Positions 8,314 through 17,481 of a DNA stretch of 64,000 bases are shown here, in pieces. Every line of letters starts with the position of its first letter. The stretch's first letter is position 1. The notes beneath the pieces were generated by a model that made no database searches, was not told the DNA's origin, and worked only from the letters and a program-made list of their open reading frames with translations. This DNA is from an uncultured Fibrobacteraceae bacterium (GTDB taxonomy: Bacteria; Krumholzibacteriota; Krumholzibacteriia; LZORAL124-64-63), in the NCBI GenBank assembly GCA_964384825.1, contig CAYLMM010000001.1, positions 38,552 through 102,551 on the forward strand, read 5' to 3'. A program made the translations under genes and the position numbers.

Positions 8314-9438
8314 TTGGCAATCCGGCACGTCTGCATCATCGATACCATGGATCTGCTCGGCGGCGCCCAGATGTGGGCCGCCGGAATCGCCGCCGATCTG
8401 CCCGGCAGGGGCTGGAGAACGAGCCTCGTCGCGCGTCCCGGATCGCCGCTGGCCGCGCTCGCCGACGAGCGGGGGCTGGCCTGCGACGAGATCCCGATCC
8501 GCTTCGACGCCGCTCCGTGGACCATCCTGCGCCTGCTCGCGGTCCTGCGCCGCCGGAAAGCGCGGGCGGTGCTCTGCCTGAATCTGAAGGACCTGAAGGC
8601 GGCCGGGGTCGCCGCCCGCCTCGCGGGCGTGCCGGTGATCCTGCTGAGCCGCGAGAGCGACTCCCCCCTGCGCCGCCGCTTCTACTACCGCTGGTATCTC
8701 GGCGGGGTGGCCACCGGCGTGGTCGTCAACTCCCGCGCCACGGCGTCGACGACGCTGCGGTCGGCCCGGTGGCTGGATCCCCGGCGGGTCCACCTGCTCT
8801 ACAAGGGGATCGACGCCGAACGGTTCCGGCCCGGTCCGCGCGCGGACGGGAATCGCGACGGCGGCGCCCCGGTGGTGGGATTCGTCGGACGGACGACCGA
8901 GAGCAAGGGCGTGCCGGAGCTGATGCGGGCCTGGGAGATGATCGCCGCCCGCGACGACCTCCGCTCCCCGCGCCTGCGCCTGGCGGGACGCGGGCCGCTG
9001 GACGCCGAGATCGCCCGCTGGCGCGAGGGTTTGCCCCGGCCCGGGAACGTCGAGATCCTCGGCTTCGCCGAGGACATGCCCGGCTTCTACCGAGGGATCG
9101 ACATCCTGGCCGCGCCTTCGCGCGTCGAGGGCTTCGGGCTGGCCGTGGCCGAGGCCGGAGCCTGCGCGGTGCCGGTCGTCGCGGCTCGGGCGAGTTCGCT
9201 GCCCGAGATCGTCCGCCATCGCGAGACCGGACTGCTGACGCCGCCGCGCGACCCGCGAGCCCTGGCCGACGCTTTGGCCGCCCTGATCCTCGATCCCGGC
9301 TTGGCGGCGCGGTTGGGCGCGGCCGCCCGGCGGCGCGTGGCGTCGGCCTTCCCCCGCGACGCCATGCTCGACAACCTGGCCCGTCTGCTGGAAACCGGAA
9401 ACGTCCCCGAAACGGGAGCCGGAAAGGAAACGCCATGA
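8314..9438 (+). CDS. Glycosyltransferase family 4 (GT1 fold)
   Basis: 374 aa with an EGFGLAVAEAGACAVPVVAA motif characteristic of GT4 retaining glycosyltransferases. Confidence 0.78.
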   Translation: MAIRHVCIIDTMDLLGGAQMWAAGIAADLPGRGWRTSLVARPGSPLAALADERGLACDEIPIRFDAAPWTILRLLAVLRRRKARAVLCLNLKDLKAAGVAARLAGVPVILLSRESDSPLRRRFYYRWYLGGVATGVVVNSRATASTTLRSARWLDPRRVHLLYKGIDAERFRPGPRADGNRDGGAPVVGFVGRTTESKGVPELMRAWEMIAARDDLRSPRLRLAGRGPLDAEIARWREGLPRPGNVEILGFAEDMPGFYRGIDILAAPSRVEGFGLAVAEAGACAVPVVAARASSLPEIVRHRETGLLTPPRDPRALADALAALILDPGLAARLGAAARRRVASAFPRDAMLDNLARLLETGNVPETGAGKETP

Positions 9439-10226
9439 GCACGCTGAAAGTCGCCGCCGTCCAGACCGATCCGGCCTTCGGCGAGATCGACCGCAACGTC
9501 GCCGAGGCCCTGGACCTCGTCCCGGCGGGATGCGACCTGGCGGTGCTTCCCGAGCTGTTCAGCACCGGCTACCAGTTCAAAGGACCGGACGAGGCCGCGG
9601 CCCTGGCCGAGCCCCTGCCCGGCGGGCCGGTCTGCCGACTTCTTTCATCCTTCGCGGCGGACACCGGCACCGCGCTGGTCGCCGGCCTGGCCGAACGCGA
9701 CGGCGACCTGCTCTACAACAGCTGCCTGCTGGCCCGCCCCGACGGCTCGACCGCCGTCTACAGGAAGGCGCACCTGTTCTGGGACGAGAAGATCAGCTTC
9801 GCTCCGGGCGACACGCCCTTCGCCGTCCATCGCGCGGCCGGAGCGCCCATCGGGATGATGATCTGCTTCGACTGGATCTTCCCGGAATCCGCCCGCGCCC
9901 TGGCCCTGGCCGGCGCGCAGGTGATCTGCCATCCGTCCAACCTGGTGCTGCCGCACTGCCCCGACGCCATGATCACCCGCTGCCTCGAAAACCGCGTCTT
10001 CGCGATCACCGCGAACCGGATCGGCGAGGAGAACCGCACCGGACAGCCGCTGAAGTTCATCGGGCGCAGCCAGGTGGTCGCGCCGAGCGGCGAAAGGCTG
10101 GCCGCGCTGGACGAAGGGCGCACCGGCGCGGCCGCCGCCGAGATCGACCTCGCGGCGACCGGCAAGCGGATCACGCCGCGCAACGACCTGTGGGCCGACC
10201 GGCGGCCCGAACTGTACCGGAAATAG
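9435..10226 (+). CDS. Carbon-nitrogen hydrolase (nitrilase superfamily)
   Basis: 263 aa starting MSTLKVAAVQTD. It has the catalytic-triad context E (PELF), K (YRKAHLF) and C (MMICFDWIFPE). Its ATG overlaps the glycosyltransferase stop (ATGA). Confidence 0.8.
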   Translation: MSTLKVAAVQTDPAFGEIDRNVAEALDLVPAGCDLAVLPELFSTGYQFKGPDEAAALAEPLPGGPVCRLLSSFAADTGTALVAGLAERDGDLLYNSCLLARPDGSTAVYRKAHLFWDEKISFAPGDTPFAVHRAAGAPIGMMICFDWIFPESARALALAGAQVICHPSNLVLPHCPDAMITRCLENRVFAITANRIGEENRTGQPLKFIGRSQVVAPSGERLAALDEGRTGAAAAEIDLAATGKRITPRNDLWADRRPELYRK

Positions 10227-10232
10227 GAATTC

Positions 10233-10667
10233 TCAGTGGAGAAGGCCGTTGGCGGGTCCCCGCTCGCCCGGCTCGGGCTCGGCGGCCTGGACGTCCGTCT
10301 CGGGCGCGGGATAGGGATCGGCCTCGGGATCGATCAGCATGCACAGATCCCAGATCCGCAGCAGGCCCTCGAAATTGATGTGGTCGACCGAATCCTGCAC
10401 CTCGTCGAGCAGCAGTTCCTCGAGATAGCCGGTGCGCATGTCCATCTCGCGCAGCTTCTCGACCATGGGCATCTCTTCGCGGCGCTGCTCGGTGCCGACG
10501 CGCGACCCGGCGAGGTAGTCGAGGTACTGGTCCCAGTCGCCGCGAAAGAAGCGCAGGCAGATCAGGCTGAGCTGCGCTTCGAGTTCGTTCAGACGGGTCT
10601 CTTCGGTGCTCTTGCTGGTTGCGCCCGTGGCTTCGTCCTCCTTGCGACGCTTGTCGCGTTTGGCCAT
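10233..10667 (-). CDS. Hypothetical small acidic protein, last gene of the glycogen operon
   Basis: 144 aa with an ATG start and strong GC3 bias. It sits 12 nt downstream of the glgC stop. I recognise no motif. Confidence 0.55.
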   Translation of the reverse strand: MAKRDKRRKEDEATGATSKSTEETRLNELEAQLSLICLRFFRGDWDQYLDYLAGSRVGTEQRREEMPMVEKLREMDMRTGYLEELLLDEVQDSVDHINFEGLLRIWDLCMLIDPEADPYPAPETDVQAAEPEPGERGPANGLLH

Positions 10668-10679
10668 GCTCGATCCCCC

Positions 10680-11924
10680 CTACAAGTCCTGCATCCGCCA
10701 TCCCTTGGGCACGACCGTGACTCCCGACGGAGTGATGGTAAAGAACTCGCCGTCGCGCTCCGGGTCAAGGCCGATGACCATTCCCGACGGCACGACCACG
10801 TCCTTGTCCAGGATCGTTCGCCGCAGAACCGCCCCGGATCCGATCAGGCAGTTGTCCATGATCACCGAATCCTCGATCCGCGTGTTCTGTTCCACCCGCA
10901 CGTTACGGCCGAGGATGGAATTGCGCACCAGGCCGCCCGTGACGATCGTCCCGCCGCCGAGGATGCTGTCGCTCACCTCGGCGCCGACGCCGCCCTCGCG
11001 AGTGTCGCCGTGGATGATCTTCGCCGGCGGGACAGGCGCCATCCAGGTCCGCACCGGCCAGCGCCGATCGTAGAGGCTGAACGGCGGCAGCGGCCGCACC
11101 AGATCCAGGGCGGCCCCGTAGTAGCTGTCCAGGGTGCCGATATCCCGCCAGTAGGGAGTCTCGTTCTCGGGTCCGTCGCGGAAAGGCCAGGCGTGGACCT
11201 TGCCCTCGTGGACCATCGCCGGAATGACGTTCTTGCCGAAGTCGTGATCCGAATCGGGGTCGGCCGCGTCCTCGGCCACGTATCGCCGCAGGGCGTCGTG
11301 CTCGAAGACGTAGACGCCCATGTTCACCAGGCATTTTCCGGGATCCCCGGGGATGGTCGCGGGATCGGAGGGCTTCTCCTGGAATCCGATCACCTTCCAG
11401 TTCTCGTCGACCACCATCACGCCGAACTCGCCCGCCATCTCGCGCGGCACGACGTAGGCGGCCACCGTCAGGTCGTCCTGATGCTCGTGGTGGTCCCTGA
11501 GCATTTCCCCGTAATTCATCCGGTAGATGTGATCGCCCGAGAGCACCAGCACATCCCGGGGTTTCTCGCGGTCGAGAAGATAGAAGTTCTGGAAGATGGC
11601 GTCGGCGGTGCCCTGGTACCATCTGGCGCCCACCCGGAACTGCGGCGGGATGCGGTAGAGGAACTCGCCGGCCTCGTAGTTGAAGATGTTCCAGCCCTTC
11701 TGCAGGTGCTTGTCCAGCGAATACGACTTGTACTGGGTCAGCACGTAGATCCGGCGCAGGCCGGAATTCCAGCAGTTCGACAGCGTGAAATCGATGATGC
11801 GGTAGAGCCCGCCGAAAGGCACGCCGGGCTTGGAGCGGTCCCGGGTCAGGGGATTCAGGCGCTCGCCCTGCCCTCCGGCCAGCACCAGGGTCAGGGTCCC
11901 GCGCAGACGTTCCAAGCTATGCAT
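10680..11924 (-). CDS. glgC: Glucose-1-phosphate adenylyltransferase
   Basis: Starts MHSLERLRGTLTLVLAGGQGERLNPLT, matching the GlgC N-terminus with its LAGGxGxRL motif. A C-terminal left-handed beta-helix region is present. Confidence 0.9.
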   Translation of the reverse strand: MHSLERLRGTLTLVLAGGQGERLNPLTRDRSKPGVPFGGLYRIIDFTLSNCWNSGLRRIYVLTQYKSYSLDKHLQKGWNIFNYEAGEFLYRIPPQFRVGARWYQGTADAIFQNFYLLDREKPRDVLVLSGDHIYRMNYGEMLRDHHEHQDDLTVAAYVVPREMAGEFGVMVVDENWKVIGFQEKPSDPATIPGDPGKCLVNMGVYVFEHDALRRYVAEDAADPDSDHDFGKNVIPAMVHEGKVHAWPFRDGPENETPYWRDIGTLDSYYGAALDLVRPLPPFSLYDRRWPVRTWMAPVPPAKIIHGDTREGGVGAEVSDSILGGGTIVTGGLVRNSILGRNVRVEQNTRIEDSVIMDNCLIGSGAVLRRTILDKDVVVPSGMVIGLDPERDGEFFTITPSGVTVVPKGWRMQDL

Positions 11925-13404
11925 CGTCGATTCTCCCTCCGCCTCTTTCCGCACACAGTTGATCGTAGACGTTCTCGTATTCGGCCGCCGGACCGTCCCA
12001 ACCGAGATCCTCGGCCATCCCCCGCAGGACAAGGGCGCGCCACTCCGCGGGATTCTGCCATTTTTCGGCCGCGATGTCCAAGGCCGCGCCCAGGGCCGCC
12101 GGCTCGGCGGCGTCGAAGACGAAACCCGTGCCGTCGGTCTCGGCGACGTCCCGCACCGTGTCGGCCAGCCCTCCGGTGCGCCGGACCACCGGCGGCGTGC
12201 CGTAGCGCAGGGCGTACATCTGGGTCAGGCCGCAGGGCTCGAACCGCGAAGGCATCGCGAAGACGTCGGACCCGGCGATGATGCGGCGGCTCAGGGGCTC
12301 GTCGAACACGTCCCGGAACGCGATGCTGCCCGGATGACGCCGCGCCGCCTCGCGCAGACCGTCGGCCAGTCCCTTGTCGCCCGAACCGAGCGCGGCCAGC
12401 CGCCATCCCGCCGCGATCATTCCGTCGAGCAGCGGCAGCAGCAGATCGTAGCCCTTCTGGCGGGCCAGCCGGCCGACCAGCCCCAGCACCGGCCCGCCGT
12501 CGGACAGCCCCATCTCGGCCAGCAAGGCGGCGCGGCAGGCGGCCTTGCCGTCGAGATCGCCGGCGTCGTAGGGCGCCGCCAGGGCCGGATCGGTCGCCGG
12601 GTTCCAGGCATCGCGGTCCATGCCGTTGCGGATCCCCCCGAAGGCGTCGCCGCGCGAACGCAGGACCCCGGCCAGGCCGCATCCCATCTCCTCGTCGGCC
12701 ACCACCTCGCGGGCGTACTGACTGCTGACGGTGTTCACCCGGTCCGCGAGCAGGATGCCGGCCTTCATCAGGCTCACCTGGCCGTAGAATTCCAGCGGCC
12801 CGGGAAAATGCTCCAGGTCGGAGGGCACCCCGAGGATCTTCGCCCCGCCGGCCGGATGCAGCGACTGGTGCGCCAGATTGTGGATGGTCAGCAGGCTGCC
12901 CGCGGCCTTTCGTCCCGGCGCCTGGTCCAGCGCCTGGAAGATCGCCGCCGGAGTCGCGGAGGCGTCGTGGACGTGCAGCACGTCGGGCGTCCAGTCCAGC
13001 GGATCGGGCGCCGACAGGGCGCCCCTGCCCAGCGCGGTCAGCCTGGCGAGCGTGTCGGGAAACTCCTCCTGCTCGCCGTAGCCGTAAACGCCCGCGCGGT
13101 CGAATAGGGCCGGACATTCCAGCAGCAGCACGTCGGGGCCGGTCCGGTCGCCGCCGCGCAAGCCTTCGGCCCGCCACAGGCGGAGCTCGTGGACGTCTCC
13201 CCCGGCGCGCACGGTCGTCGCGGGTGCCCCGGCGACCGGCCGCATCCCGTACTTCACGCGATCGACGCCGCCGTAGAGCGGCAAAACCGCACGCACGTCG
13301 TGGCCCCGGGCGGCCAGCGCCCCGGAAAGCGAGGCCACCGCGTCGGCCAGACCGCCGACCTTGGCCAGCGGCGCGTATTCGGCGCTCACCATCAAAATCT
13401 TCAC
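11917..13404 (-). CDS. glgA: Glycogen synthase (ADP-glucose type)
   Basis: VKILMVSAEYAPLAKVGGLADAV matches the GlgA N-terminus. The likely start is GTG at 13404; the alternative ATG is at 13392. The stop overlaps the glgC start. Confidence 0.88.
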   Translation of the reverse strand: MKILMVSAEYAPLAKVGGLADAVASLSGALAARGHDVRAVLPLYGGVDRVKYGMRPVAGAPATTVRAGGDVHELRLWRAEGLRGGDRTGPDVLLLECPALFDRAGVYGYGEQEEFPDTLARLTALGRGALSAPDPLDWTPDVLHVHDASATPAAIFQALDQAPGRKAAGSLLTIHNLAHQSLHPAGGAKILGVPSDLEHFPGPLEFYGQVSLMKAGILLADRVNTVSSQYAREVVADEEMGCGLAGVLRSRGDAFGGIRNGMDRDAWNPATDPALAAPYDAGDLDGKAACRAALLAEMGLSDGGPVLGLVGRLARQKGYDLLLPLLDGMIAAGWRLAALGSGDKGLADGLREAARRHPGSIAFRDVFDEPLSRRIIAGSDVFAMPSRFEPCGLTQMYALRYGTPPVVRRTGGLADTVRDVAETDGTGFVFDAAEPAALGAALDIAAEKWQNPAEWRALVLRGMAEDLGWDGPAAEYENVYDQLCAERGGGRIDDA

Positions 13405-15536
13405 GCCGTCGCCTCCGGTCGCCCTCCGGCCCCGATCCGGAATTCGGCGGAAAGAACGCGGCCGGCTCCCGGAGCCAGCTCCAGATCCCAGCCGAAGACC
13501 AGGGCGTGCCCCTGGTAGGTCCGATGGAACCCGTCCTCGCCCTGGGACGCGGTGCGGACCGGATGGATCCATATCGCGGCAGGATCCGAAAAACGCCAGT
13601 CCAGCCGCGCGTCCCGGGGCGGCACGTCCACCGACAGTTCCGCGTGTTCGCCCGCATCGACGGGTTCGCCCAAATCGATCCGATCGAGCCCCGCGACGGC
13701 CAACCGCGTCGCGCCGTCGATCAGGGCCAGATTCCATTCCGAAGCCAGACGGCAGCGCAGGGGCAGGTCGCCGTCGTTGCGGATCTCCCAGGTCACGGTG
13801 AAACCGGCGGCGGCGGGATCCAGGGCGATCTCCTTGGCCAGGAACACCGGCTGCGTCCGGTCGGCGGAAACGAAGGAGCCGGCGCGTTCGCAGCGGCAGC
13901 GGGCGAAGCCCCCGGACACGTCCGGCGGCGCGGAAAGACGCATCGGAGCGGCTGCGAAATCCCCGGCGTCGGCCGCCGCGACATCGCCGGCGCCGGGCGG
14001 GAACGCGGCCCCGAAGGGCAGCAGGCGGTCGAGCAGGGAATACCGCGGAGCGGGATCCTCGCCGAGAGCCTCGCGGACCTCCGGGCTCACCGCGCGCTGG
14101 AGATCATGGATGGAAGCCCCTCCGCCCTCTTCGGCGCCGTCAGGAACAGAAGCCTCGATCGCCGCATGATAGGCCTCGCGCCGCCGCCGCAAGGTGTTCT
14201 GCAGGTTCCATCCCTTGTCGATCAGATCGCAGGCGATCACCGCCGCGCCGCTTTGCGGACAGATCGCCAGCGCGAGGCGGTCGCCGGCCAGACGCACGTC
14301 GCCGCCGGGCGGACCGATCAGGGTCACCGCCTCGGCCCGGGGGCCGGTTTTCGGCAGGGCCGCCCAGCCGCGGATCAGATGATGATGAACGGCGTCCCGC
14401 AGATGCGGCAGGTAGAGCCCCCCGAAGACGCCGTGCCAGTAGGCGCAGTTGCACTGGGCCCGCCACAGATGGTCGCGGGCTCCGGCGACCGCGGCGGCGG
14501 GCGCGCCTCCGGATTCCGCGGCCGCGATATCGCGATGCAGCAGCAGGGCGCGGCGCTGCATCAGCAGCGACTCCTCGTATTTCTGGCCGAACTGGCGCCA
14601 GAAGCCGCCGCGCAGGAAGGGACGCATCTCGGCCCAGCGGCCCTGGTCGCGGTAGGCGTGGACCGCGCGGGCGAAGGTTTCGGCCGCCGGCATCGGCAAC
14701 GACCACTCCGCCATCTCGAAATAGCTGTTGGGAGGCAGATAAACCCGGCGCCGCGGCGGCCGGGCGGCCAGGATCTCCGAGGGGTGGGCCAGCTCCAGCC
14801 AATCCGATTCGGCGGCCAGGGCTGCCACGAAACGCTCCAGCCAGCCGCGCCCGTAGACGAGGTCGGCGGTCCCGGGCCAGGCCCCGAACTTCTCGCCGTC
14901 GTCGACCATCACCAGCACGCCGCCCGGATCGCGGTCGTGGACGGCCCGGCACAAGGCGATCGTCTCGGCCGGGTCACGGAAGGGGATCGCGTAGCGCAGA
15001 TCCTCGCTGATCGGCAGAAGCGCGGCCTCTTCGCCCAGATCATCGGTCAGAAACGCGCCCGATGTCAGATCCCCGGGCTGCACGCCGGCCTGCAGGAAAT
15101 GGAAATCGTCCAGCAGGGCGAATTCCACGCCAGCCCGGCGCAAGGTCCCGGCCAGATGCGGCTCCCAGACGCGCTCGGCCAGCCACACGCCGCGCGGTTC
15201 GGCCCCCAGCCTTTCCGCCAACCGGCGGCGCATCAGATCGATCTGCCCGAGGCGATCCCGTTCGGGTATCGCCGCCAGGATCGGTTCGTAGAAGCCCCCG
15301 CCCAGCAGTTCGACCCGGCCGTCCGCGACCAGGGCGGCCACCCGGTCGAGGAATTCCGGGCGCGAAGCCTCCATCCATTCCAGCAGCGGCCCGGTCAGAT
15401 GCAGGCAGAACCGGAACCCCGGATGCCGCTCGACGGCATCCAGGAAGGGACGGTAGGCCTGCTCGTAGATCTCGGCGACGACATGGTCGAAGTTCCCGAC
15501 CGGCTGGTGGTCGTGGACCCCGAAAACGAACTTCAT
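13401..15536 (-). CDS. GH57 family protein, 4-alpha-glucanotransferase-like
   Basis: Starts MKFVFGVHDHQPVGNF, matching the N-terminus of GH57 4-alpha-glucanotransferases. About 711 aa with a C-terminal extension. The ATG overlaps the stop of the upstream GH57 gene, and its own stop overlaps the glgA GTG. Confidence 0.75.
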   Translation of the reverse strand: MKFVFGVHDHQPVGNFDHVVAEIYEQAYRPFLDAVERHPGFRFCLHLTGPLLEWMEASRPEFLDRVAALVADGRVELLGGGFYEPILAAIPERDRLGQIDLMRRRLAERLGAEPRGVWLAERVWEPHLAGTLRRAGVEFALLDDFHFLQAGVQPGDLTSGAFLTDDLGEEAALLPISEDLRYAIPFRDPAETIALCRAVHDRDPGGVLVMVDDGEKFGAWPGTADLVYGRGWLERFVAALAAESDWLELAHPSEILAARPPRRRVYLPPNSYFEMAEWSLPMPAAETFARAVHAYRDQGRWAEMRPFLRGGFWRQFGQKYEESLLMQRRALLLHRDIAAAESGGAPAAAVAGARDHLWRAQCNCAYWHGVFGGLYLPHLRDAVHHHLIRGWAALPKTGPRAEAVTLIGPPGGDVRLAGDRLALAICPQSGAAVIACDLIDKGWNLQNTLRRRREAYHAAIEASVPDGAEEGGGASIHDLQRAVSPEVREALGEDPAPRYSLLDRLLPFGAAFPPGAGDVAAADAGDFAAAPMRLSAPPDVSGGFARCRCERAGSFVSADRTQPVFLAKEIALDPAAAGFTVTWEIRNDGDLPLRCRLASEWNLALIDGATRLAVAGLDRIDLGEPVDAGEHAELSVDVPPRDARLDWRFSDPAAIWIHPVRTASQGEDGFHRTYQGHALVFGWDLELAPGAGRVLSAEFRIGAGGRPEATA

Positions 15537-17239
15537 TCGGCTTCCTCTCCAAACCCGGAGACCGGGATGTCGGTGATGGCGTCGGGCTCGTGTCCCAGCA
15601 GCGACGCCGTGTTGGCCAGATGTCGCCGGAAGAGTTCGTCGAATTCCAGTCCGAATTCGGTCGGGTTGTCGTCGCCGTACCACCAGAACCAGTCGCTGCT
15701 CTCGGCGTTGGCCAACGCGGCCATCGCCTCGGCCAGCGCTCCGGTGCAGCCCGGCCCGACCAGATCGGGATCCGGGGCGGGAATCGGGATCGTCTCGCCG
15801 GCAATCCGGATTTCACGGACCGCGCCGGCCTGTTCCAGACGCTCCTGGAAGGCTGCGCGCACCTGCCCCAGCACATCCCAGGCCCGGTTCTTTTCGGGAT
15901 GGCCCGACCAGGTCGTGAAATCGGCCCGGATCCAGGATCCGGCCCGCAGCGCGGTCAGGGGCCGCACCTCGCCGCCCCCGTCCAAATACTCCGAGAAGGT
16001 TGTCCAGCGCAGGTTCTCGCTCCGGTTCACCCGTTCGTAGAGTTCACGCAGAAACGGCGCCCCGTTTTCGGGATACGATTCCCATGGGTTCTCTCCGTCC
16101 AGGATCAGGGCGCAGACGTGTCTTCCCGCGGGCACTTCCCGGCGGATGTTCTCGAGGTTCCGCACCAGATCGTCGACCGCGTCGGCGGCGTCCCAGGCCT
16201 GATAACGGAAACCGATGCCGTCGGACATCCCGGTATCCCGGAAGAACAGGGCCGGAGCCTCGTCCCCGCCCCAGCGCCAGGCCTGGAAATGCCGGCCCGG
16301 CGGGTTCCCCTGGCCGATCCTCGCCAGCGAACCCTCCAGAACCCCCTGGTCGGTCGCGGCCCAGCGCACGCCTTCGGTCTGCAGGATCCGCAGCGCCTCC
16401 TCGCTGACCGCCCCCTCGGCCGGCCACATCCCGGACGGACGAACTCCCAGCACCCGCTCGGTCTCGTCCAGGGCCGTGCGCACGTGATACCAGGCGTCGC
16501 CCGGGTGGCGGAACCGGCGCCGGGGCAGCGGCAGGTCGGGAGCCGCCTCCCGGGCCGAAACCGTGTCGCAGAGCAGCGGCAGGATGGGATGGTTCAAGGG
16601 CGTGCAGGAGATCTCCACCACGCCGTCGGCCGCGGCCTTGCGGTAGGCCGGCAGCACCTTCTTCAGGAAACGCGCCTGCTTGGCCAGCAGCGTCTCCTTC
16701 TGCTTCTGGGTGTAGCGCCCGCCCTTGGCGACCAGCTTGGCGATCGTCGCGTCCTCGCGCAGCGTGCGCCCGCTCCAGACCAGATGGAAGAGCGTCTGCA
16801 GATCCAGCAGATCCTGGTCGGTGAACGCAGCGGCCGCCCCCTCGGGCACATCGCGCCCCTCGCCGCCGCGCTTCTCCCAGAGCTCGGCCAGCCGTGGGAA
16901 TTCCGCGAAACGGGTCTTGTGGCGGAACGCGAAGAAGTCGCGGACCAGATTCTCGCGCCCGGCGGCGTCGAGCTCGGACGGATGCGGCCACGCCAGGTCG
17001 AGGTAGTCGTCCCCGAGCTCTCCGGCGGCCAGCATCTCGAGCTGCCGCAGCAACGAGGGCACCAGGTTGACGACGGCCTTCGCCCCGGGAGTCTCGCGGA
17101 CCAGGCGCACCATGTCATAGTAGTTCAGCAGCGCGTGCAGCCGCGTCCAGGGCATCCGGGCACGGCCGGTGGCGCCGTCCACGTAATCCGGCTGATGCAT
17201 GTGCCAGAGTACGACCACATCGAGGATTCGAGCGGGCAT
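15533..17239 (-). CDS. GH57 family glycoside hydrolase (alpha-amylase-like)
   Basis: Starts MPARILDVVVLWHMHQPDY. This is the GH57 HQP catalytic N-terminal motif. 568 aa. Confidence 0.75.
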   Translation of the reverse strand: MPARILDVVVLWHMHQPDYVDGATGRARMPWTRLHALLNYYDMVRLVRETPGAKAVVNLVPSLLRQLEMLAAGELGDDYLDLAWPHPSELDAAGRENLVRDFFAFRHKTRFAEFPRLAELWEKRGGEGRDVPEGAAAAFTDQDLLDLQTLFHLVWSGRTLREDATIAKLVAKGGRYTQKQKETLLAKQARFLKKVLPAYRKAAADGVVEISCTPLNHPILPLLCDTVSAREAAPDLPLPRRRFRHPGDAWYHVRTALDETERVLGVRPSGMWPAEGAVSEEALRILQTEGVRWAATDQGVLEGSLARIGQGNPPGRHFQAWRWGGDEAPALFFRDTGMSDGIGFRYQAWDAADAVDDLVRNLENIRREVPAGRHVCALILDGENPWESYPENGAPFLRELYERVNRSENLRWTTFSEYLDGGGEVRPLTALRAGSWIRADFTTWSGHPEKNRAWDVLGQVRAAFQERLEQAGAVREIRIAGETIPIPAPDPDLVGPGCTGALAEAMAALANAESSDWFWWYGDDNPTEFGLEFDELFRRHLANTASLLGHEPDAITDIPVSGFGEEAE

Positions 17240-17260: not shown

Positions 17261-17277
17261 TCCGGAAATTATCCGGA
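17261..17277. promoter_or_regulatory. Inverted repeat TCCGGA-N5-TCCGGA in the glg operon 5' region
   Basis: Perfect 6-bp arms, 22 to 38 nt upstream of the GH57 start codon. A second 8-bp inverted repeat, CCTGCCTG...CAGGCAGG, lies at about 17288-17323. Confidence 0.3.
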
Positions 17278-17481
17278 ACCTTCGCCCCCTGCCTGCGTAG
17301 GATACACCAGCCCGACAGGCAGGCAAACGAGAGCTTCCATCGAACGAAGCGGGCACCACCTACAGAGAGCGCAGGAAGAGGAGCGGCGACAGCCGCTCTT
17401 CTTTCTTTGAGCGTGAAAAACGGCGCTGTTCCAGGATTCGGGTTCGGATATCTTCAGGCCGGGGTCCGAAACCCCGGCGCC

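What the first reader, a model, noticed from the sequence alone, without database searches (positions are those of the whole stretch)
10233..10667. Small acidic protein of unknown function co-transcribed as the last gene of the glycogen operon
This is a 144-aa ORF with an ATG start and strong GC3 codon bias. It starts 12 nt after the glgC stop on the same strand. The protein is highly charged, with a basic N-terminus and an acidic remainder, and has no motif I recognise. Its position after GH57-GH57-glgA-glgC suggests a glycogen-metabolism accessory or regulatory protein.
Basis: inference. Interest (0 to 1): 0.5.

Follow-up and report, generated by a model that had tools for sequence, protein, structure and literature searches.

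The report
Orphan small protein ending glycogen operon
This is a real, conserved 144-residue helical protein from an unannotated family that sits right after the ADP-glucose pyrophosphorylase gene (glgC) in almost every sampled genome of the uncultured phylum Krumholzibacteriota, but its function is unknown and it survives even where the glycogen genes next to it were deleted.

Summary
Window 10233-10667 on the minus strand is a 144-aa ATG ORF that starts 12 nt after the glgC stop, as the last cistron of GH57-GH57-glgA-glgC. It is a real gene: GC3 is 0.855, core dN/dS is 0.10-0.46, and it has about 30 homologues.

It matches nothing in Pfam, NCBIfam, PHROGs, PDB sequences or PDB/BFVD folds. 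AlphaFold predicts a confident five-helix core (residues about 25-120). This is flanked by a disordered basic N-terminus and an acidic, proline-rich tail that ends in [LM]H-COOH in all 25 complete relatives.

The family is from Ca. Krumholzibacteriota. In 26 of 26 glg-bearing loci with upstream sequence, the homologue directly follows glgC (gap -4 to 144 nt). The usual cluster is GalT-like, glgA, GAF histidine kinase, stand-alone receiver, glgC, ORF.

Three sister lineages lack the glg genes here. The former glg promoter region and a glgC 3' remnant (clear in L005, weak in L001 and L012) lie next to the ORF, which stays under purifying selection. Distant homologues (22-31% identity) lie in non-glg contexts.

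My best guess is a non-enzymatic binding or regulatory protein co-expressed with carbon storage.

The parts
10233..10667 (-). The 144-aa ORF, founding member of an unannotated family with signature C-L-R-[YF]-F-R-G-[DN]-W-D-x-Y-L-D-Y-L. Residues 1-25 form a disordered basic N-terminus, about 25-120 a five-helix core, and 121-144 an acidic Pro-rich tail ending in LH-COOH.
   Evidence: ORF; homologues; alignment and invariant residues; AF2 pLDDT 78.8, core >90; GC3 and dN/dS.
10668..10679 (-). 12-nt glgC-ORF spacer carrying a Shine-Dalgarno-like GGGGGA six nt upstream of the ATG.
   Evidence: sequence. GGAG-type sites sit at the same position in most relatives.
10680..11924 (-). glgC (ADP-glucose pyrophosphorylase), the conserved upstream neighbour of the ORF.
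   Evidence: PF00483 2e-58, PF24894; adjacency in 26 loci.
11917..13404 (-). glgA (glycogen/starch synthase). It overlaps the glgC start by 8 nt. The histidine kinase and receiver found here in other lineages are absent.
   Evidence: PF08323.
13401..15536 (-). GH57 enzyme with AmyA/4-alpha-glucanotransferase middle and C-terminal domains.
   Evidence: PF03065, PF09094, PF09095.
15533..17239 (-). Second GH57 enzyme, the first gene of the cluster in this window.
   Evidence: PF03065.
17275..17338 (-). Conserved promoter-like element upstream of the glg cluster: GGAAGCTCTCGTTTGCCTGCCTG...TGTATCCTACGC...GAAGGTTCC. It has a -35-like TTTGCC (17327-17322), a 17-nt spacer and a -10-like TATCCT (17304-17299). 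In the glg-deleted relatives the same element lies directly upstream of the ORF.
   Evidence: 74-85% identity over 64-127 nt to the ORF-upstream regions of L001, L012 and L005. Promoter function is inferred; the simple consensus scan did not call it.
9435..10226 (+). Convergent carbon-nitrogen hydrolase gene. Its stop lies 6 nt from the ORF's stop, and it is the ORF's neighbour on the other side in the closest relatives.
   Evidence: PF00795.

Best explanation
The ORF encodes a real, cytoplasmic, non-enzymatic small protein that founds a previously unannotated family. It has a roughly 95-residue five-helix core, a disordered Lys/Arg-rich N-terminus and a flexible acidic Pro-rich tail. The tail ends in an invariant [LM]H-COOH.

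It is the conserved last cistron of the Krumholzibacteriota glycogen-synthesis cluster, ancestrally GalT-like, glgA, GAF histidine kinase, stand-alone receiver, glgC, ORF. It is probably transcribed from the cluster's promoter and translated from its own SD.

Most likely mechanism (inferred, not shown): it acts by binding other proteins. The conserved aromatic and charged face of the core (FRGDWDxYLDYL, QRRR, RDRRT) would be the interface, and the tail's terminal peptide a docking motif. In this way it would adjust or relay control of carbon storage, for example acting on GlgC or GlgA, or downstream of the embedded kinase and receiver.

It kept a function after the adjacent glg genes were deleted, so its partner is not exclusively encoded next to it.

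Shown: gene reality, fold class, linkage, the deletion history. Inferred: co-transcription, binding role, link to glycogen control.
For: Gene reality:
- Homologues at E 1e-44 to 1e-51.
- 14 genome loci and 15 metagenome loci.
- Core dN/dS 0.10-0.46, equal to or below that of the neighbouring CN_hydrolase in most of the genome pairs compared.
- GC3 0.855.
- SD in the window and in most relatives.

Fold:
- AF2 with a 13-sequence alignment gives pLDDT 78.8, core >90, five helices and disordered ends.

No enzyme or known domain:
- Pfam, NCBIfam and PHROGs give no significant match.

Linkage:
- glgC is directly upstream on the same strand in 12 of 14 genomes and 14 of 14 informative metagenome loci, with gaps of -4 to 144 nt.
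- This holds despite variable content on both sides. The HK and REC are present or absent between glgA and glgC, and 0-4 kb of insert lies downstream.

Expression from the glg promoter:
- The four glg genes overlap by 4, 4 and 8 nt and the ORF follows after 12 nt.
- In the deleted lineages the region upstream of the window's first GH57 gene is fused, via a glgC 3' remnant, to the ORF. The remnant is clear in L005 (36 aa, 53% identity, E 1e-7) and weak in L001 and L012.

Tail motif:
- [LM]H-COOH ends 25 of 25 complete sequences, while the preceding 20 or so residues vary.
Against: - There is no direct evidence of any partner or activity.
- Three lineages (L001, L005, L012) lost the adjacent glg cluster yet keep the gene under undiminished constraint.
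- The window lineage lost the kinase and receiver from the cluster, and no ortholog exists in the 64 kb.
- Distant family members (22-31% identity) follow folE or a RecQ-like helicase.
- Gene order across this whole region (CLC, deacetylase ... CN_hydrolase, GT4, POR, Dus) is conserved in the phylum, so part of the adjacency may be inherited synteny rather than functional coupling.
- Whether the conserved residues are surface-exposed could not be checked, because no model coordinates were available.
Confidence: 0.4

Rival explanations
1. It is a co-regulated passenger. The protein is a general starvation or stationary-phase factor, for example a binder of the transcription or translation machinery. 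It shares the glg promoter because both are needed under nutrient imbalance, but it does not act on glycogen enzymes.
For: The gene is kept with the former glg promoter after the glg genes were deleted, and constraint is unchanged. Distant homologues lie in unrelated contexts. The architecture of a basic N-terminus, a helical core and an acidic tail is common among small regulatory binders (established knowledge; no specific match was found).
Against: The position immediately after glgC is very persistent (26 loci) while both flanks vary. No similarity was found to any known factor of this type.
Confidence: 0.3
2. It is the output partner of the two-component pair embedded in the cluster. The stand-alone receiver has no output domain and is 76-93% identical across lineages. 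It would bind this small protein in a phosphorylation-dependent way, and the small protein would then act on GlgC or GlgA (a partner-switch scheme).
For: The GAF-HisKA-HATPase kinase and a 122-aa REC-only protein sit between glgA and glgC in 11 genome loci and 12 of the metagenome loci. A REC-only regulator needs a protein target (established knowledge of single-domain response regulators).
Against: The window and its three closest relatives lack the kinase and receiver at the locus, and the window has no ortholog in 64 kb, yet the ORF is conserved. No invariant His occurs in the helical core, so it is not an Hpt-type phosphotransfer protein. No co-variation test was possible with about 25 sequences.
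Confidence: 0.15
3. It is an alpha-glucan or granule-associated protein. The conserved aromatic cluster (Y40, F41, W45, Y48, Y51) would stack on glucan chains, so the protein would coat or organise glycogen particles, in the way phasins coat PHA granules.
For: Five aromatic residues within 12 positions are invariant or nearly so. The gene is co-encoded with glycogen synthesis genes.
Against: No CBM or other carbohydrate-binding domain is detected. The same aromatic signature is kept in distant homologues with no glg context. Aromatic residues in a small helical bundle are more likely to be core packing. Solvent exposure could not be tested.
Confidence: 0.08
4. It is not a gene: a chance ORF in GC-rich DNA.
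For: Long spurious ORFs are abundant here, for example 10171..10701(-) and 10236..12281(+), which overlap this locus.
Against: The protein is conserved across about 30 loci with dN/dS 0.10-0.46. GC3 is 0.855 against GC2 0.39 in this frame. The ATG and SD are conserved. The predicted fold is confident.
Confidence: 0.01

Closest known systems
GlgS / ScoR of Escherichia coli (small helical protein once linked to glycogen synthesis)
   Same: Both are small, all-helical, non-enzymatic proteins historically associated with glycogen accumulation.
Glycogenin C-terminal glycogen-synthase-binding peptide, and plant starch-initiation helical partners (analogy only)
   Same: The architecture is a folded domain, a flexible linker and a short conserved C-terminal peptide that could dock onto a synthase.
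   Different: This is purely an architectural analogy from own knowledge. There is no homology, no GT8 domain and no experimental link. It was not testable here.
Hpt phosphotransfer domains and small partners of single-domain response regulators
   Same: It is a small helical bundle encoded next to a histidine kinase and a REC-only protein in most lineages.
   Different: No Pfam Hpt hit. No invariant histidine in the helical core; the only invariant His is the C-terminal residue. The gene is retained where the kinase and receiver are gone.
Uncharacterised distant homologues P0007, P0008, P0010, P0011, P0013 and P0014 (82-134 aa; metagenomic, unnamed)
   Same: They share the core signature F-[RHN]-G-x-W-[DTN]...L-P-L-V...L-x-E-x-D...L-L...F-x-x-L...W/F-E-x-C. 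Profile E-values are 3.7e-16 to 8e-4 against 1.8 billion proteins.
   Different: Identity is 22-31%. They lack the acidic tail and the terminal [LM]H. Where the context could be read (P0008, P0011, P0014), they lie after adh_short-folE or a RecQ-like helicase rather than glgC.

Membership tests
Any curated protein family (Pfam-A, NCBIfam, PHROGs) | A significant profile-HMM match | tested here: not met
   No Pfam or NCBIfam families at E up to 10 for the ORF. Across 11 family members the only Pfam hit was one at E 0.04. The best PHROGs hit had E 0.2.
Any solved structure or fold | Sequence or fold similarity to a PDB chain | tested here: not met
GlgS/ScoR | Homology to E. coli GlgS (66-aa helical protein) | tested here: not met
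   hhalign probability 1.2% (query sequence from memory, so this follows a lead and is not a definitive test). No such PDB hit.
Hpt phosphotransfer protein | Four-helix bundle with an invariant phospho-accepting His on a helix; Pfam Hpt match | tested here: not met
   No Pfam hit. The invariant columns of A3 contain no core His.
Response regulator receiver | Alpha/beta REC fold, PF00072 | tested here: not met
   The prediction is all-helical, with no PF00072 hit. The true REC of the cluster is a separate 122-aa gene in relatives.
Carbohydrate-binding module | CBM domain match (e.g. CBM20/48), beta-sandwich fold | tested here: not met
   No Pfam hit; all-helical model. Actual glucan binding is not testable with these tools.
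New 'FRGxWD' small-protein family (defined here) | Core signature C-L-R-[YF]-F-R-G-[DN]-W-[DE]-x-Y-[LIQ]-D-[YFH]-L followed by Q-[RQ] ... V ... L ... D ... E-D/D-E ... F..L...W | tested here: met
   The window protein carries all invariant columns of A3.
New 'FRGxWD' small-protein family (defined here) | Acidic Pro-rich tail ending in [LM]H-COOH (Krumholzibacteriota subfamily) | tested here: met
   The window protein ends ...GPANGLLH. All 25 complete relatives end in [LM]H.
New 'FRGxWD' small-protein family (defined here) | Position immediately downstream of glgC on the same strand (Krumholzibacteriota subfamily) | tested here: met
   12-nt gap in the window. The same arrangement occurs in 26 other loci. 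The exceptions are three lineages where the glg genes were deleted.

The most novel reading that the evidence does not exclude
The protein is a new kind of small regulatory subunit of bacterial glycogen synthesis. It would be the effector through which a glg-embedded two-component pair (GAF kinase plus REC-only regulator) controls GlgC or GlgA post-translationally, docking by its invariant C-terminal [LM]H peptide. No protein-level regulator of this type is known for bacterial ADP-glucose pyrophosphorylase or glycogen synthase.
Probability: 0.12. Interest if true: 0.75.

Novelty: categorically new. Interest (0 to 1): 0.42.

Why it matters
In the textbook view, bacterial glycogen synthesis is controlled by metabolite allostery on GlgC and by global regulators such as CsrA. 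A phylum-wide glg cluster that carries its own sensor kinase, a receiver-only regulator and an unclassifiable small helical protein points to a dedicated signalling layer on carbon storage. This layer sits in an uncultured FCB-group phylum.

If the small protein turns out to bind GlgC, GlgA or the receiver, it would be a new class of protein regulator of storage-polysaccharide synthesis. If it does not, it is still a well-defined new protein family. It has a confident new-looking fold and an unusual invariant C-terminal motif, which makes it suitable for database curation as a DUF.

I chose 'categorically new' only because nothing known resembles the protein. No new mechanism has been demonstrated.

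Tried and rejected
1. Curated family searches (Pfam, NCBIfam, PHROGs) on the ORF and on 11 family members gave nothing.

3. The wider genome scan reversed this. Those lineages are secondary deletions.

4. The first AF2 run, with 5 sequences, was poor (pLDDT 55.7) and was superseded by the 13-sequence run.

5. The third word-indexed protein search, with a 23-sequence profile, returned no additional members. The 12 genome-derived homologues are apparently not in that protein collection.

6. P0009, a 1921-aa eukaryotic-type coiled-coil repeat protein that hit at E 4e-6 in 10 stretches, was rejected as a compositional artefact.

7. The 78-residue N-terminal extension of P0005 was rejected as a possible domain fusion. 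Contig L013 is a low-GC/high-GC chimera joined at the start codon.

8. GlgS homology was rejected.

9. Hpt, RiPP-precursor and CBM ideas were rejected. There is no core His, no Cys-rich core peptide, no modifying enzymes nearby, and no beta fold.

10. Two literature searches found nothing on this protein or on glg-embedded two-component systems.

11. A genome-contig scan with the broad alignment A2 failed because no stretch was conserved enough.

Full report
**1. The observation**

Window 10233-10667 holds a 144-aa ATG ORF on the minus strand. Its ATG (10667-10665) lies 12 nt after the TAG stop of glgC (10680-10682). The spacer reads GGGGGATCGAGC, so a Shine-Dalgarno-like GGGGGA sits six nt before the ATG.

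Pfam confirms the upstream genes on the same strand. The boundaries come from the gene calls of the identical contig L009:
- glgC, PF00483, 10680-11924
- glgA, PF08323, 11917-13404
- a GH57 enzyme with AmyA/4-alpha-glucanotransferase domains, 13401-15536
- a second GH57, 15533-17239

These four genes overlap by 4, 4 and 8 nt. A carbon-nitrogen hydrolase gene converges on the ORF from the other strand and ends 6 nt from its stop.

In 69% GC DNA an ORF of this size is not remarkable in itself. One search lists many overlapping spurious ORFs. In this frame, however, GC by codon position is 0.71/0.39/0.855. The protein has pI 4.49 with a basic N-terminus (MAKRDKRRKEDE).

**2. It is a real gene of an unannotated family**

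A search of 5.8 billion proteins found only the identical protein and four relatives at 59-66% identity, none with a name or a Pfam domain. An exhaustive profile search of 1.8 billion cluster representatives added a few distant small proteins of 82-134 aa at 22-31% identity, with E-values from 3.7e-16 to 8e-4. They share the core signature F-[RHN]-G-x-W-D ... LPLV ... L.E.D ... LL ... F..L...WE.C.

One hit, P0009, is a eukaryotic-type coiled-coil repeat protein and is a compositional artefact.

Scans of one genome per GTDB species and of JGI metagenomes found 14 and 15 further loci. The records that name a lineage name either Candidatus Krumholzibacteriota/-iia or, for several MAGs with the same synteny, 'uncultured Fibrobacteraceae'.

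Core dN/dS (residues 26-120) is 0.10-0.46. In most of the genome pairs compared this equals or is lower than the value for the neighbouring CN_hydrolase. Most relatives have a GGAG-type SD 5-9 nt before the ATG.

**3. Anatomy**

With a 13-sequence alignment, AlphaFold2 gives pLDDT 78.8. Residues about 25-120 score above 90 and form five helices: 28-41, 45-53, 59-79, 81-94 and 99-112. Residues 1-25 and 121-144 are disordered. An earlier 5-sequence run was poor.

In the 16-sequence Krumholzibacteriota alignment the invariant columns cluster in three places:
- C37-L-R-x-F-R-G-x-W-x-x-Y-x-D-Y-L-x-G-x-R-V57
- Q61-R62
- V69, L72, D76, L82, D88-E89, F99, L102, W106, P114, P118

The tail is acidic and proline-rich (for example LDPESEPFPEF) and otherwise variable. 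Even so, all 25 complete sequences end in [LM]H-COOH, usually P-P-[ST]-[LM]-H. The N-terminus always begins with a short Lys/Arg-rich stretch.

There is no hydrophobic segment or signal peptide by inspection, so the protein is presumably cytoplasmic.

**4. No resemblance to anything known**

- Pfam, NCBIfam and PHROGs give no significant match.
- PDB by sequence or profile: best E 0.2.
- Foldseek against PDB and BFVD: nothing below E 0.4.
- The AlphaFold-database libraries were not available.
- There is no invariant histidine in the helical core, so it is not an Hpt-type phosphotransfer domain.

**5. Genomic context: the central result**

The two closest relatives first looked like a refutation, because their homologue has no glg neighbour. 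The order there is polysaccharide deacetylase, then a 264-nt gap (or an inserted Ank-repeat gene plus a MalK-like gene), then the ORF, then the convergent CN_hydrolase.

The wider sample reversed this picture. I ran tblastn with the window's proteins against all loci:
- In 12 of 14 species-level genomes the homologue lies directly downstream of glgC on the same strand.
- The same holds in all 14 metagenome loci that have enough upstream sequence.
- The distance from the glgC stop to the ORF's ATG ranges from -4 to 144 nt.

The usual cluster is a GalT-like HIT-family gene, glgA, a 615-aa GAF-HisKA-HATPase histidine kinase, a 122-aa receiver-only response regulator (PF00072; 76-93% identical across lineages), glgC and the ORF. 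Downstream content varies by 0-4 kb. It is often a convergent ECF sigma factor plus a VWA/YfbK-like gene, placed before the CN_hydrolase.

The window's arrangement is a derived variant. The kinase and receiver are missing (glgA and glgC overlap), the two GH57 genes abut glgA, and no ortholog of the kinase or receiver exists in the 64 kb.

**6. The glg-less relatives are deletions that kept the promoter and the ORF**

The 64-127 nt upstream of the window's first GH57 gene is 74-85% identical to the region upstream of the ORF in L001, L012 and L005, with E-values from 1e-17 to 4e-10. This stretch includes GCTCTCGTTTGCCTGCCTG ... TGTATCCTACGC ... GAAGGTTCC at window 17338-17275.

Between that element and the ORF, L005 retains a 36-codon remnant of the glgC 3' end:
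- L005 remnant: PSGARFGLDRGGDGEFLTVTRRGVAVAPGARIRPL
- Window glgC: PSGMVIGLDPERDGEFFTITPSGVTVVPKGWRMQDL
- 53% identity, E 1e-7

L001 and L012 retain a more eroded piece, CCTTGACC...GAGTTC.TT.

A deletion running from the 5' leader of the first glg gene into the end of glgC therefore fused the cluster's upstream region to the small ORF. This has three consequences:
- glgC-ORF adjacency is ancestral for these lineages too.
- The ORF can be expressed from the glg promoter region, which supports co-transcription in the window.
- The ORF remained under purifying selection without adjacent glg genes (core dN/dS 0.10-0.42 within that clade).

The element has a -35-like TTTGCC, a 17-nt spacer and a -10-like TATCCT. 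Promoter function is inferred, and the simple consensus scan did not call it.

**7. Interpretation**

The shown facts are:
- a real, constrained, helical, non-enzymatic small protein;
- conserved placement after glgC across the sampled Krumholzibacteriota loci;
- probable operon membership;
- independence from glg genes in cis.

The function is not shown. My best-supported explanation (confidence 0.4) is a binding or regulatory protein co-expressed with carbon-storage genes. It would act through protein-protein contacts, with the folded core as the interface and the flexible acidic tail's invariant terminal peptide as a docking motif. Likely partners are GlgC or GlgA, or the embedded kinase and receiver.

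The rivals are:
- a co-regulated starvation factor unrelated to glycogen enzymes (0.3), favoured by its retention after the glg deletion and by the non-glg contexts of distant homologues (folE, RecQ-like helicase);
- specifically the output partner of the REC-only regulator (0.15), weakened by loss of the kinase and receiver in the window's clade;
- a glucan- or granule-binding protein using its aromatic cluster (0.08);
- a spurious ORF (0.01, refuted).

A general caveat applies. Gene order in the whole region is conserved in this phylum, so part of the adjacency could be inherited synteny. Against that, both flanks of the glgC-ORF pair have been remodelled repeatedly while the pair itself persisted.

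**8. Novelty and score**

No database annotates this family and nothing known resembles it. By distance from known kinds it is new, but no new mechanism has been demonstrated. Conserved hypothetical proteins at operon ends are common.

What lifts it above the ordinary:
- the phylum-wide linkage to glgC;
- the embedded two-component pair in the same cluster;
- the confident fold with no match;
- the invariant C-terminal [LM]H;
- the natural deletion that separates the gene from the glg genes.

Interest is 0.42. The most novel reading not excluded is a protein effector through which a glg-embedded two-component system controls GlgC or GlgA. I give it probability 0.12, and an interest of 0.75 if true.

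Noticed in passing
L030 6250-8097 and 8174-8542 (likewise L024-L033, L035, L036, L038-L042, L045, L047-L050); absent from window 11917-11924: In most Krumholzibacteriota the glycogen cluster carries a GAF-HisKA-HATPase histidine kinase and a 122-aa receiver-only response regulator between glgA and glgC. The receiver is 76-93% identical across lineages in which glgC is only about 60% identical to the window's. The window lacks both and has no ortholog within 64 kb. Two literature searches found no description of a two-component pair embedded in a glg operon.
   Followed up: partly
L001 5140-5403, L005 7727-8081, L012 340-606; window 17275-17338 and 10680-10790: Three sister lineages lost the whole glg cluster through a deletion from the leader of the first GH57 gene into the 3' end of glgC. 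This left a glgC remnant (clear in L005, weak in L001 and L012) and the conserved upstream, promoter-like element fused to the small ORF.
   Followed up: yes
window 17376-17399 (-): A GC-rich hairpin (AGAGCGGCTGTCGCCGCTCCTCTT) follows the polysaccharide deacetylase gene and is conserved in L001 and L012. It is probably that gene's terminator and marks the start of the glg transcription unit.
   Followed up: no
L005 4625-7726 (= L006 6502-9603): In one glg-deleted lineage a 633-aa ankyrin-repeat protein and a MalK-like ABC ATPase (PF00005, OB_MalK, TOBE_2) are inserted on the opposite strand, between the deacetylase gene and the retained promoter element.
   Followed up: no
L013 1-861 (protein P0005): The contig is an assembly chimera: low-GC sequence up to about position 370 is joined to high-GC Krumholzibacteriota sequence right at the ORF start. 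The 219-aa 'fusion' protein in the database is therefore an artefact.
   Followed up: yes
L022-L025, L027, L031 record titles: Several MAGs labelled 'uncultured Fibrobacteraceae' share gene order with MAGs labelled Candidatus Krumholzibacteriia/-ota and have similar proteins (each compared with the window's proteins). The Fibrobacteraceae label looks like a taxonomic mis-assignment.
   Followed up: no
L030 3861-4853 and equivalents in L026, L027, L031-L033, L035, L036, L040-L042, L045, L048, L049: A GalT/HIT-family gene (PF01087, PF02744, DUF4921) precedes glgA in the canonical cluster. It may be a nucleotide-sugar phosphorylase or transferase tied to glycogen metabolism. It is not present at this position in the window.
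   Followed up: no
L030 10511-13443 (-) and equivalents in L025, L029, L031, L032, L035, L040, L042, L044, L045: A convergent ECF sigma factor gene followed by a 777-aa CarboxypepD_reg-VWA-YfbK_C protein lies between the small ORF and the CN_hydrolase in many lineages. Neither was found in the window.
   Followed up: no
window 10171-10701 (-) and 10236-12281 (+): Long ORFs in other frames (176 aa and 681 aa) overlap the small gene and glgC. They are typical spurious open frames of 69% GC DNA and could mislead automatic gene callers.
   Followed up: partly
L014 1548-1871, L019 4669-5010, L021 1515-1895: Distant family members (107-126 aa, no acidic tail) sit after adh_short-folE (in one variant PTPS-folE), a pterin-biosynthesis context. 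One sits after a RecQ-like helicase. The contigs have 56-67% GC and unknown taxonomy. A conserved 191-aa protein with no Pfam match follows in the folE loci.
   Followed up: partly
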